Shown here piece by piece: positions 8,784 to 9,949 of a stretch of DNA of 16,099 bases (the stretch's first letter is position 1; each line of letters starts with the position of its first letter). This DNA comes from a virus (lineage: Duplodnaviria > Heunggongvirae > Uroviricota > Caudoviricetes), in the IMG/VR virus record IMGVR_UViG_2563366820_000001, positions 1 to 16,099 of that record, one strand, 5' to 3'. A program made the position numbers and the translations under genes. Below the pieces are notes generated by a model that had not been told where the DNA came from, searched no databases, and saw nothing but the letters and a program-made list of their open reading frames with translations.

Positions 8784-9131
8784 ATGAAGGATGCGGAGGA
8801 ACTGAAAGAAATGGCTTGCGATTTGCGCGAGGTTGAGCTTTTCAAGGATGAAGGCGGGGAGTTAATCACGTCGTTGGTGGTTGTGGATAAGCCGCGCCCA
8901 CCCGTTGAACTGGAGCGCATCGAGGAAGCCGGGAACAAGACGGAGAATCACGCCGCACTATGGGGCTGTATTCGTTCACGCACGCAACGCGGAGATAAAT
9001 GCACTATTCCGTTATTGCGCGATGACATGAAAAAGCTGGGGTATGAGATGAAACACTTCCGGCGCTGGCTGTACAAGCTGGAAGGTGACGGCGTAATCAC
9101 TATTGACGGTGATGACGTGCGCCCACTGTAA
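8784..9131 (+). CDS. Hypothetical protein (115 aa), possibly a 5'-truncated remnant
   Basis: ORF with GC-rich, core-like codon usage; the in-frame stretch upstream of the ATG (8724..8783) also reads protein-like but has no canonical start codon. Confidence 0.35.
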   Translation: MKDAEELKEMACDLREVELFKDEGGELITSLVVVDKPRPPVELERIEEAGNKTENHAALWGCIRSRTQRGDKCTIPLLRDDMKKLGYEMKHFRRWLYKLEGDGVITIDGDDVRPL

Positions 9132-9521
9132 AAAGTGGGGAGCAAAAGTGGGGAGAGTGAGCAATGAGAGCCAAAGAAGCCATTTTTCCCCACTTTTCAA
9201 CCTGTATATATACAAAAAAGTGGGGAGTGAAAAATTCAAAATAAAACAATGAATTATTGATTTGTGAAATCCCAATTGTTGGCGTGGTGAGAAATAGAAA
9301 AAGTGGGTAATAAAAATGAGTAGTGATGGGTAAATGAAAACTATGTGATGAAAGCAATAGGAAGATTAAAAAAATAACCAATGCAATATATTAACTAAAA
9401 ATTAACTATTTACCCCACCTTTGCGTATATATAGAGGTTTAAAAGCGGGGCCTTAAAAATATATTTAAAATCATACTGTTATTAACTTCATAAATTCCCA
9501 CCTGGCAACGAGTGGGGAATT
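9131..9521 (+). repeat. Second repeat family AAAGTGGGGA(G) in an AT-rich region: direct copies at 9131..9142, 9145..9156, 9217..9228, degenerate 9297..9309; inverted copies 9184..9197, 9409..9419; dyad AATTCCCAC-n9-AGTGGGGAATT at 9493..9521
   Basis: Read directly from sequence; about 8 copies in under 400 bp, both orientations, no long ORF with plausible composition. Confidence 0.55.
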
Positions 9522-9610
9522 AAAAAATCAGGAATGTTAAAAATGAAAACAGAATGTTATATCGGCGCCGTTGGAGAACATAATACGAAATTTATAAGCT
9601 GAAACGTAAA

Positions 9611-9949
9611 GGTAGACGGTTGGTAGACAGTAATACTTAACCCTCTACCAACCATCTACTAATTAATGTTTTGAATTATATAGGTATTTTTAATGTGGTA
9701 GAGAGGTGGACAGTTTATTTTATATTTCTAAACCACGGGGGGTATATAAAAACAGATAGTTATGGGTTCATTTTTAAAATTTTTATTTTAACTATCTACA
9801 CTGTCTACCATTTAGTAAAAATCATTAATTATCAATGTATTAATACGGTAGACAGTTGGTGGACAGTTTGCAGATTGTTTTTTTGTTATGTGTTAATAAC
9901 ATTAAATAAATCAATCAATTATATCGGTAGGCAGTTGGTAGACAGTTGT
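9611..9949 (+). repeat. Five copies of a roughly 20-bp dyad iteron GGTAGACAGTTGGTAGACAG (direct: 9611..9630, 9846..9867, 9925..9947; inverted: 9643..9659, 9792..9810; variant 9696..9713) upstream of the FinO-like gene
   Basis: Exact and near-exact repeats read from sequence; the track ORF 9671..9973 runs through them and is probably spurious. Confidence 0.6.

What the first reader, a model, noticed from the sequence alone, without database searches (positions are those of the whole stretch)
9131..9949. Two further iteron families (AAAGTGGGGA and a 20-bp GGTAGACAGTTGGTAGACAG dyad) forming a second origin-like or regulatory block
About 800 bp of AT-rich, essentially non-coding DNA carries roughly 8 copies of AAAGTGGGGA and 5 copies of a 20-bp iteron whose core (GGTAGA) matches the iterons next to the primase. 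Two separated iteron blocks sharing a core suggest a bipartite origin, an origin plus an incompatibility/handcuffing locus, or a duplicated origin from recombination between satellites. The block also sits immediately upstream of the FinO-like gene and may serve as its promoter/operator.
Basis: seen in the sequence. Interest (0 to 1): 0.5.

Follow-up and report, generated by a model that had tools for sequence, protein, structure and literature searches.

The report
Two orphan satellite replication origins stacked
The 800-bp repeat-rich spacer is two complete replication origins left behind by recombination between phage-satellite islands of E. coli, each belonging to a replication-initiator gene that this island no longer carries, so it is an instructive mosaic of a known kind of element, not a new one.

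Summary
The repeats are real and far beyond chance. The block is not one element. It is two origin cassettes of Gram-negative phage-inducible chromosomal islands (PICIs), joined head to tail.

- **ori-A (9132-9574):** the AAAGTGGGGA iterons. In relatives this DNA lies directly 3' of a full-length RepA-type helicase gene. Only the last 135 codons of that gene survive here (8724-9131). In 64 full-length loci fetched from IMG/VR and E. coli, a His/Asn residue at the start of the predicted winged-helix recognition helix tracks a G/A base in the iteron without exception.
- **ori-B (9575-9953):** the GGTAGACAG iterons. In about 100 E. coli genomes this is the whole spacer between a different, 601-aa P4-alpha/D5-type primase and proQ. 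The window keeps only that gene's last two codons and stop.
- **ori-1 (8408-8726):** the island's own primase has its own origin here. It is homologous to the experimentally validated EcCICFT073 origin.

So three origins sit in tandem. ori-A is an orphan. ori-B shares the resident primase's iteron core and may still be bound by it. A bipartite-origin requirement and a proQ promoter role are not supported by relatives. This is a known kind of element in an unusual stacked arrangement, of moderate interest.

The parts
6656..8407 (+). Resident Pri-Rep initiator: a 583-aa P4-alpha/D5-type primase-helicase with a C-terminal winged-helix origin-binding domain.
   Evidence: Pfam D5_N, DUF5906 and Pox_D5. 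Residues 226-440 match SaPI5 PriRep5 (7OLA, E=2.5e-14) and residues 487-577 match the P4 alpha C-terminal domain (1KA8, E=6.7e-8). It is 72% identical to the Pri-Rep of L009, whose flanks match the EcCICFT073 delta-pri primers exactly.
8408..8726 (.). ori-1, the cognate origin of the resident primase. It has 11 GGTAGAY half-sites in two sets (8425-8528 mostly +, 8609-8713 mostly -) flanking an 80-bp centre of 32% GC.
   Evidence: The same architecture and iterons lie 3' of related primases: L009/EcCICFT073 and L094-L097.
8727..8735 (.). Junction 1: the 9-nt microhomology TACCGGATA, where the primase-ori-1 cassette is fused to the 3' part of repA.
   Evidence: The native cassette in L094 ends ...GATGAAAGTACCGGATATGAAAC. 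Intact repA encodes EYRIRR at the position where the window relic reads KYRIRR (AAG TAC CGG ATA CGG). DNA homology to intact repA starts at about 8719 (H8-H11).
8724..9131 (+). repA' relic: the last 135 codons of a RepA-family helicase-initiator gene of about 470 aa. An ORF runs from the internal ATG at 8784 (115 aa). Residues 71-135 form the predicted winged-helix DNA-binding domain. His111 (codon 9054-9056) sits at the start of helix 3.
   Evidence: 85% amino-acid identity to L003 RepA residues 337-471. Matches phrog_2850 positions 347-465. PGAP annotates the equivalent stretch as a RepA pseudogene missing its N-terminus. AF2 model has pLDDT about 90 for residues 71-135 with an H-H-H-E-E topology. 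The top Foldseek hits are mostly winged-helix domains.
9132..9574 (.). ori-A, an orphan origin of the RepA-type (His-specificity) initiator.
- Iterons AAAGTGGGGA at 9132+, 9145+, 9187-, 9217+, 9300+, 9412-, 9442+, 9496-(degenerate) and 9509+.
- Inverted iteron pairs around TATATATA at 9187-9226 and 9412-9451.
- AT-rich centre 9227-9411 (26% GC).
   Evidence: Lies directly 3' of full-length repA in L002, L003, L010, L011, in the full-length loci among the 80 IMG/VR loci (a few carry truncated genes), and in a Xenorhabdus locus. Iteron base co-varies with RepA residue 111 (H-G 27/27, N-A 37/37).
9575..9583 (+). Junction 2: AGA ACA TAA, the last two codons and stop of the 601-aa primase allele. 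This is all that remains of that gene.
   Evidence: Alignment with L005/L006 (...GACAGAACATAATACGAAATTT) and L004. The RepA-type spacer ends at GTTGG, 9570-9574.
9575..9953 (.). ori-B, the origin cassette of the 601-aa P4-alpha/D5-type primase allele.
- GGTAGACAG half-sites in 11-bp-phased pairs at 9611-9630+, 9641-9660-, 9697-9713+, 9792-9809-, 9847-9866+ and 9926-9945+.
- AT-rich centre 9714-9790 (22% GC).
   Evidence: It is the entire primase-proQ spacer in L004 and L005. 98-105 E. coli genomes carry it. 102 genomes carry it contiguous with the 601-aa primase 3' end.
9954..10505 (+). ProQ/FinO-family gene (PGAP-style start at 9966). This conserved downstream gene forms the right border of all origin cassettes.
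   Evidence: Pfam ProQ, E=1.6e-23. Annotated downstream of the origin in L001-L005, L010 and L011; in L094 the proQ start sequence follows the origin.

Best explanation
The window is a Gram-negative PICI (phage-inducible chromosomal island) inserted at the tRNA-Thr gene next to proA. Its gene order is int, alpA, Pri-Rep, origin, proQ-perC.

**How such origins work (established for the family).** In these islands the origin is the DNA immediately 3' of the initiator gene. It has two sets of short iterons flanking an AT-rich stretch. The initiator is a self-loading hexameric helicase. It recognises the iterons with a C-terminal winged-helix domain, melts the AT-rich centre and loads itself.

**What the finding region is.** It is two such origins in tandem, both foreign to the resident initiator gene.
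- **ori-A (9132-9574)** is the origin of a RepA-type initiator. That gene was truncated to its last 135 codons when the present primase plus its own origin (ori-1, 8408-8726) was joined to it at a 9-nt microhomology.
- **ori-B (9575-9953)** is the origin of a third initiator allele, a 601-aa primase. It is joined exactly at that gene's stop codon.

**Shown here.** The homology and position of each cassette, both junctions, and the covariation between protein residue and iteron base for ori-A.

**Inferred.**
- The island replicates from ori-1 with its own primase.
- ori-A can only fire if a His-type RepA is supplied in trans by a co-resident island.
- ori-B shares the GGTAGAC core and the protein motifs associated with it, so the resident primase probably still binds it. 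It would then act as a redundant second origin or a titration site.
- The stacking is a by-product of illegitimate recombination between co-resident islands, not a designed bipartite origin.
For: **1. Island type.**
- int, AlpA, D5-type primase, ProQ and PerC are present, plus the int-alpA RNA.
- It sits at tRNA-Thr(CGT) next to proA.
- Published PICI architecture places the origin 3' of rep, with two iteron sets around an AT-rich region and four Pri-Rep alleles in E. coli (PMC6092414). The SaPI Rep C-terminal winged helix binds iterons immediately downstream of rep (PMC9371898).

**2. ori-A.**
- The same DNA follows the stop codon of full-length repA in E. coli loci L002, L003, L010 and L011, in the 80 IMG/VR loci fetched (most of them full length) and in Xenorhabdus.
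- All iterons change in concert between AAAGTGGGGA and AAAGTGAGGA.
- The residue before F in K[H/N]FRRWL predicts the base in full-length genes: H-G 27/27 and N-A 37/37, across several distinct C-terminal backgrounds. Sixteen further loci follow the same rule.
- That residue lies at the N-terminal end of helix 3 of a confidently modelled winged helix.
- The only mismatch is another truncated relic, L025.

**3. ori-B.**
- It is the complete spacer between the 601-aa primase and proQ.
- 102 genomes have it contiguous with that primase, out of about 105 that carry it.

**4. ori-1.**
- It lies 3' of the resident primase and is a homologue of the EcCICFT073 origin, which was validated by plasmid assay.
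- The native form primase-ori-1-proQ, without the relic, exists in L094-L096.

**5. Specificity module.**
- In both primase lineages DNA homology to relatives stops 120-220 nt before the stop codon. The C-terminal domain and the origin are therefore exchanged as a unit.
- C-terminal-domain motifs track iteron type.
Against: - There is no functional data for this island. Which cassettes fire is inference.
- The relic ORF is still open. Its dN/dS between relic copies (0.07-0.21) is as low as between intact genes. This could mean the 115-aa winged-helix protein is still used. It could equally be produced by recombination with intact alleles.
- ori-A and ori-B are about 94-95% identical to copies in functional contexts. 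Only one (ori-A, GCGGGG at 9445) or two (ori-B) iteron-core substitutions are private to the window. They are therefore either recent or maintained.
- The ori-A/ori-B junction was found nowhere else, so the arrangement cannot be checked in independent lineages.
- Covariation for the primase family rests on fewer, less independent groups and has one exception, L152.
Confidence: 0.85

Rival explanations
1. Functional two-site origin of the resident primase, modelled on P4 ori/crr. ori-1 and ori-B carry the same GGTAGAC iterons. The primase's P4-alpha-like C-terminal domain binds both, and the two sites cooperate (or ori-B acts as an enhancer) in initiation.
For: - The GGTAGAC core is shared by ori-1 and ori-B.
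- The primase C-terminal domain is homologous to the P4 alpha origin-binding domain 1KA8.
- The resident primase carries the NDFGKAMK helix, which accompanies GGTAGA[C/T]A iterons in about 39 loci. It also carries the KGRTxTNV wing shared with the 601-aa primase. A primase with an L004-like domain but a different wing has GGTGAAC iterons.
- That P4 needs both ori and crr is my own knowledge (Flensburg and Calendar 1987; Ziegelin et al. 1993-95). The ISME paper mentions crr only in passing.
Against: - L001 and at least five other E. coli genomes have the same primase, ori-1 and relic without ori-B.
- L094-L096 have primase and ori-1 directly before proQ.
- About 100 islands have ori-B as their only origin.
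- Each cassette is therefore sufficient in its own context. ori-B arrived by a junction at another gene's stop codon.
Confidence: 0.25
2. Copy-number, incompatibility or interference locus. The extra iteron arrays titrate or handcuff initiators, either the island's own or those of competing co-resident islands. The relic 115-aa winged-helix protein may block RepA-type origins of competitors.
For: - The iteron arrays are intact.
- The relic ORF is open with low dN/dS, and the cognate His/GTGGGG pairing is retained in this window.
- E. coli strains carry up to 5 related islands.
- Extra iterons lower copy number in iteron plasmids (general knowledge).
Against: - There is no Shine-Dalgarno sequence before the ATG at 8784 (sequence).
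- In the sister relic L025 the His relic is paired with GTGAGG iterons, so the pairing is not maintained.
- Stacked arrangements are rare: about 10 of 5426 genomes for ori-1+relic+ori-A, and 1 of 160 IMG/VR loci.
Confidence: 0.12
3. Promoter/operator region, or sRNA locus, serving the downstream ProQ/FinO-PerC operon.
For: - ori-B abuts the proQ ribosome-binding site.
- The DNA is AT-rich with some -10-like hexamers.
- FinO-family proteins usually have RNA partners (general knowledge).
Against: - Promoter-like sites: 4 found against 5.2 expected.
- No Rfam family matches in 9131-9953 even at E<=1.
- In relatives proQ is preceded by ori-A alone (L001), by an inserted gene (L002), by ori-B alone (L004) or by ori-1 alone (L094). 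Only about 20 nt of leader is shared.
- Gram-negative PICIs are transcribed unidirectionally from upstream (PMC6092414).
Confidence: 0.07

Closest known systems
EcCICFT073 pri-rep/ori replicon (Gram-negative PICI; Fillol-Salom et al. 2018, PMC6092414)
   Same: - Same island family and gene order.
- The origin lies immediately 3' of the initiator, with two iteron sets around an AT-rich centre.
- The EcCICFT073 origin carries GGTAGAC/GGTAGAT iterons like ori-1 and ori-B.
- Its Pri-Rep is 72% identical to the window's.
   Different: EcCICFT073 has one initiator and one origin. Here three origin cassettes are stacked, and two of them lack their initiator gene.
SaPI origins and Rep/PriRep self-loading helicases (PMC9371898 and references therein)
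   Same: - Iterons sit directly downstream of rep, are split by an AT-rich region and have opposite orientations.
- They are recognised by a C-terminal winged helix.
- The window primase matches PriRep5 (7OLA), E=2.5e-14.
   Different: - Different host lineage and different iteron sequences.
- The RepA-type initiator of ori-A has an RSF1010-RepA-like (AAA_25) core, which only weakly matches 1G8Y. It is not a D5/SF3 core.
Satellite phage P4 alpha protein with ori and crr
   Same: - The C-terminal domain of the window primase is homologous to the P4 alpha origin-binding domain (1KA8).
- A sister allele (L092) even uses the P4 type I iteron, GGTGAACAG = TGTTCACC (iteron identity from my own knowledge).
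- There are two separated iteron clusters with the same core.
   Different: In P4 both sites are required (my own knowledge). Here relatives show that each cluster is a self-sufficient origin, and the second arrived by recombination.
Iteron plasmids (for example P1, F, RK2, pPS10) with extra iteron arrays used for incompatibility and copy control
   Same: Clusters of initiator-binding repeats lie outside the primary origin.
   Different: The arrays here are whole origins of other initiator alleles, located in an inducible chromosomal island, not a stably maintained plasmid. No control function has been shown.

Membership tests
PICI replication origin | Lies immediately 3' of the replication-initiator gene | tested here: met
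   - ori-A starts at the stop codon of repA, both in the relic here and in full-length genes in 64+16 loci.
- ori-B starts at the stop codon of the 601-aa primase in 102 E. coli genomes, and at that gene's last 2 codons plus stop here.
PICI replication origin | Two sets of short iterons, with members in opposite orientation, flanking an AT-rich putative melting region | tested here: met
   - ori-A: sets at 9132-9226 and 9412-9518 around a centre of 26% GC.
- ori-B: sets at 9611-9713 and 9792-9945 around a centre of 22% GC.
- Both strands are represented.
PICI replication origin | Iterons are specific to the cognate initiator (C-terminal winged-helix recognition) | tested here: met
   - ori-A: His/Asn against G/A covariation, 64/64 in full-length genes. 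The residue lies on the predicted recognition helix.
- ori-B and ori-1: C-terminal-domain motif against iteron type in 4 reference loci and 80 IMG/VR loci, with one exception. The domain is homologous to 1KA8.
PICI replication origin | Supports replication when the cognate initiator is supplied | not testable with these tools
   This has been shown experimentally only for the homologous EcCICFT073 pri-ori (PMC6092414).
Gram-negative PICI (EcCI type) | int at a specific att site, alpA, pri-rep plus ori, a small size of about 10-15 kb, and unidirectional gene order | tested here: met
   - tRNA-Thr next to proA.
- int, AlpA, primase, ProQ, PerC and DUF2213 all lie on the + strand.
- Related islands are about 12 kb.
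P4-type bipartite origin (ori + crr) | Two separated clusters of the same iteron, bound by the initiator's C-terminal domain | tested here: inconclusive
   The same GGTAGAC core occurs in ori-1 and ori-B, and the domain is P4-alpha-like. Binding was not tested.
P4-type bipartite origin (ori + crr) | Both clusters are needed and are inherited together with the initiator | tested here: not met
   Relatives with the same primase lack ori-B (L001, L094). About 100 islands have ori-B only.
FinO/ProQ partner RNA or operator of proQ | A conserved structured RNA or operator located upstream of the FinO-family gene | tested here: not met
   No Rfam match in the region. The DNA upstream of proQ is not conserved across relatives. 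There is no excess of promoter-like sites.

The most novel reading that the evidence does not exclude
Origin stacking is functional. By carrying the origins of two other initiator alleles, the island can be replicated in trans by the initiators of co-resident PICIs, which would be satellite-on-satellite piracy. Alternatively, together with the surviving 115-aa winged-helix fragment, it titrates or blocks competitors' initiators. In parallel, ori-1 and ori-B would give the resident P4-alpha-like primase a two-site origin.
Probability: 0.15. Interest if true: 0.7.

Novelty: new member of a known kind. Interest (0 to 1): 0.38.

Why it matters
- It shows how PICI replication modules are exchanged. 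The unit of exchange is the initiator's C-terminal domain plus its origin, bordered by a shared N-terminal domain and by proQ. The exchange can be sloppy and leave orphan origins behind.
- The comparative data give a very clean specificity code for the RepA-type initiator: one His/Asn residue against one G/A base. Such a code is directly testable and could be useful for building orthogonal replicons.
- If the orphan origins are active in trans, they would reveal competition or cooperation between satellites that share a cell.
- For genome annotation, iteron-rich 'spacers' in such islands should be read as origin cassettes. RepA 'pseudogenes' next to them should be read as recombination scars.

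Tried and rejected
- **Rfam, whole window (E<=1):** nothing in 9131-9953. The only real hits are the tRNA and the int-alpA RNA.
- **Promoter/terminator scan of 8300-10100:** no excess over shuffles, and no + strand terminator.
- **DnaA box and lambda cosN:** one exact DnaA box at 8882-8890(-). It lies inside the relic's coding sequence and is absent from L001, so I judged it to be chance. There is no cos site in the region.
- **Locating EcCICFT073 by guessed coordinates in CFT073:** this returned a lambdoid prophage. The link was recovered instead through the published deletion primers.
- **Genome-contig scan with the relic protein:** gave only one locus, in Xenorhabdus, which was still informative.
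- **tblastn of the relic against the phage collection:** one distant hit, in a Salmonella record.
- **The search for homologous proteins with the relic:** returned mostly partial E. coli proteins. It was used only to deepen the alignment for AF2.
- **dN/dS of the relic:** low, but uninformative because recombination with intact alleles could produce the same result.
- **Searches for the ori-A/ori-B junction** in IMG/VR and JGI metagenomes: none found.
- **Literature search for P4 ori/crr in the held library:** found nothing usable. The P4 statements rest on my own knowledge.
- **PADLOC on the cargo genes:** no hits.
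Full report
**1.

In 9131-9520 there are four exact AAAGTGGGGA copies (9132+, 9145+, 9187-, 9217+). They are the only exact copies in the 16-kb window. There is also one 1-mismatch copy (9300+), three 2-mismatch copies (9412-, 9442+, 9509+) and a degenerate arm at 9496-9501(-).

The 20-mer GGTAGACAGTTGGTAGACAG has three 1-mismatch copies (9611, 9847, 9926), against none in 200 shuffles. Three looser pairs lie at 9641-9660(-), 9697-9713(+) and 9792-9809(-). Each '20-bp dyad' is two 9-mers in direct repeat, 11 bp apart.

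The GGTAGA core is shared with 11 half-sites at 8425-8713, beside the primase. The DNA has 30-33% GC against 46% for the window. Its ORFs are not conserved in relatives.

**2. Context.**

The window is an E. coli island at tRNA-Thr(CGT) next to proA. Its features, in order:
- integrase, 1611-2825
- int-alpA RNA, 2869-2936
- AlpA, 3944-4141
- AntA-like gene
- Icd-like gene
- DUF4222 gene
- a 583-aa D5/P4-alpha-type primase-helicase, 6656-8407
- ProQ/FinO, 9954-10505
- PerC
- DUF2213 gene
- a TerS/Cox-like gene

This is the Gram-negative PICI layout. For that family the origin is defined as the region immediately 3' of the initiator gene, with two iteron sets flanking an AT-rich stretch. Four Pri-Rep alleles are reported in E. 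coli PICIs (PMC6092414). In SaPIs the initiator's C-terminal winged helix reads the iterons (PMC9371898).

**3. The AAAGTGGGGA segment is the origin of a RepA-type initiator (ori-A, 9132-9574).**

The ORF just upstream (8784-9131; in-frame from 8724) is the last 135 codons of a RepA-family helicase of about 470 aa. It is 85% identical to L003 RepA residues 337-471. It matches positions 347-465 of phrog_2850. PGAP annotates the equivalent stretch in a relative as a RepA pseudogene lacking its N-terminus.

In islands with an intact repA (L002, L003, L010, L011) the DNA after the stop codon aligns with 9132-9574 and runs to proQ. The layout recurs after a 718-aa protein carrying the same C-terminal domain in Xenorhabdus littoralis. 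There too the iterons start at the stop codon and an inverted pair surrounds ATATATAC.

The iterons change in concert. L003, L010, L011 and the Xenorhabdus locus read AAAGTGAGGA at every copy, on both strands.

I fetched 80 IMG/VR loci with this domain. In full-length genes the residue before Phe in K[H/N]F(R/S)RWL predicts the variable base:
- His goes with G in 27/27 loci.
- Asn goes with A in 37/37 loci.
- This holds on several different C-terminal sequence backgrounds.
- Sixteen more divergent loci obey the same rule: KHLKRWL goes with AAAGTGGGC, and KNMRRWL goes with AAAGTGAG(T/G).

An AF2 model of the relic is confident for residues 71-135 (pLDDT about 90). It shows helices 74-89, 95-104 and 112-121 plus a two-strand wing. 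This places His111 (codon 9054-9056) at the start of the third helix. The top Foldseek matches are mostly winged-helix DNA-binding domains, although with weak E-values of about 0.1.

This is strong comparative evidence that these repeats are the iterons of that domain.

**4. The GGTAGACAG segment is the origin of a different primase allele (ori-B, 9575-9953).**

In L004 and L005 this DNA is the entire spacer between a 601-aa DUF5906/primase gene and proQ. That primase is 50% identical to the window's.

About 105 of 5426 complete E. coli genomes carry the segment. 102 genomes carry a 931-nt stretch spanning the 3' end of that primase plus the segment.

The window's 9575-9583, AGA ACA TAA, aligns with that gene's last two codons and stop. 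Upstream of 9574 the sequence follows the RepA-type spacer.

L003 shows a related, independent or ancestral join: repA, ori-A, 147 nt of proQ, about 50 nt of the primase 3' end, ori-B, proQ.

**5. The island's own origin is ori-1 (8408-8726).**

It follows the resident primase and has two GGTAGAY sets around a centre of 32% GC.

The deletion primers published for EcCICFT073 pri match L009 (E. coli Nissle) exactly, at both ends of its primase gene. That primase is 72% identical to the window's. The DNA after it carries GGTAGAC/GGTAGAT iterons. So ori-1 is a homologue of an origin validated by plasmid assay.

Three IMG/VR loci whose C-terminal domain is 92% identical to the window's have primase, an ori-1-like origin and proQ with no relic (L094-L096). 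Their right end (...GATGAAAGTACCGGATATG...) identifies the left junction of the relic. It is a 9-nt microhomology, TACCGGATA (8727-8735), with repA.

**6. The C-terminal domain and the origin move together.**

DNA homology between the window primase and 524 E. coli relatives stops about 220 nt before the stop codon. For the 601-aa primase it stops about 120 nt before.

The window's C-terminal domain matches the origin-binding domain of P4 alpha (1KA8, E=6.7e-8). Its core matches SaPI5 PriRep5 (7OLA).

Across fetched loci, C-terminal motifs track iteron type:

| C-terminal motif | Iteron | Loci |
|---|---|---|
| NDFGKAMK helix | GGTAGA[C/T]A | about 39 |
| (E/D)FSKAMK helix | GGTAGAGG | about 28, one exception (L152) |
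| NKFSRAIK helix | GTAGGGAT | 7 |
| L004-like domain with a different wing | GGTGAACAG, the P4 iteron | L092 |

The resident primase has the NDFGKAMK helix, and it shares the KGRTxTNV wing with the 601-aa primase. It may therefore well bind ori-B. This is an inference.

**7. Reading.**

Three origin cassettes from three initiator alleles lie in tandem: ori-1 (cognate), ori-A (orphan) and ori-B (orphan by descent, possibly cross-recognised).

All three initiator types share an N-terminal domain of about 140 aa (57-75% identity), and all are followed by proQ. These shared flanks provide the homology for normal module exchange. The two junctions here are illegitimate.

Stacking is rare:
- The ori-1 + relic + ori-A form occurs in about 6-10 complete E. 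coli genomes.
- It occurs in one IMG/VR contig (L025/L093/L173).
- In that contig a His relic sits next to GTGAGG iterons, so the relic-origin pairing is not maintained.
- The ori-A/ori-B junction of this window was found in no complete E. coli genome, nor in IMG/VR or JGI metagenomes.

**8. Rivals.**

- **Required bipartite origin.** This is contradicted by relatives that have only one cassette. Optional cross-use of ori-B remains open.
- **Titration or interference.** This cannot be excluded. The relic ORF is open and has low dN/dS. But it lacks a visible ribosome-binding site, and the low ratio can come from recombination with intact alleles.
- **proQ promoter, operator or sRNA.** This is not supported.

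**9. Verdict.**

The elements are members of a known kind, PICI origins. The triple stacking and the orphan origins are unusual but explicable. The one-residue/one-base specificity rule for the RepA-type initiator is the most useful by-product.

Noticed in passing
window 13075-13340: Six exact copies of AAAGTGTCAA (5 on +, 1 on -), against 1.2 expected for the pattern at up to one mismatch. They lie in the non-coding stretch after the TerS/Cox-like gene (12531-13055). This may be a packaging or regulatory site. The 5' half resembles the ori-A iteron.
   Followed up: partly
window 6656-7090, with L002 5002-5430 and L004 6194-6620: All three initiator types (583-aa primase, 601-aa primase, 470-aa RepA helicase) share an N-terminal domain of about 140 aa and unknown function (57-75% identity; phrog_2850 positions 1-135). 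It always follows a DUF4222 gene.
   Followed up: partly
window 9054-9056, and loci L012-L091: A single His/Asn residue in the RepA C-terminal winged helix tracks G/A in the iteron (GTG[G/A]G) in 64/64 full-length loci, and in 16 more divergent ones. This is a candidate one-residue specificity switch.
   Followed up: yes
L092 2045-2330 (E. coli NDM2): A sister primase allele, in an island with SSB and a major capsid gene, has an origin built of GGTGAACAG. By my own recollection this is the type I iteron of satellite phage P4 (TGTTCACC).
   Followed up: no
L003 6884-7040 (E. coli ETEC1747): A duplicated 5' fragment of proQ is fused to the last 50 nt or so of the 601-aa primase gene, between ori-A and ori-B. 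It is a second, differently placed recombination scar that stacks the same two origins.
   Followed up: partly
window 9543-9602, L001 about 10144-10194, L002 6826-7599: A short ORF starting ATGAAAACAGAA (MKTEC...) with an AGGA 9 nt upstream closes the RepA-type origin in all relatives. In L002 it is the start of an inserted 257-aa gene.
   Followed up: no
window 2869-2936: An int-alpA RNA motif (Rfam RF02996, 48.4 bits, above the gathering score) lies directly after the integrase gene.
   Followed up: no
window 13462-16099: A low-GC (about 35%) cargo region at the island's end holds a 194-aa ORF with no family match, a DUF4747 protein (14607-15500) and a further ORF that runs off the window. 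There are no PADLOC hits. It may be an uncharacterised defence or accessory module of the type PICIs often carry.
   Followed up: partly
window 8882-8890 (-): An exact DnaA box, TTATCCACA, lies inside the repA relic. It is coding-derived (VDK) and absent from L001, so it is probably fortuitous.
   Followed up: partly
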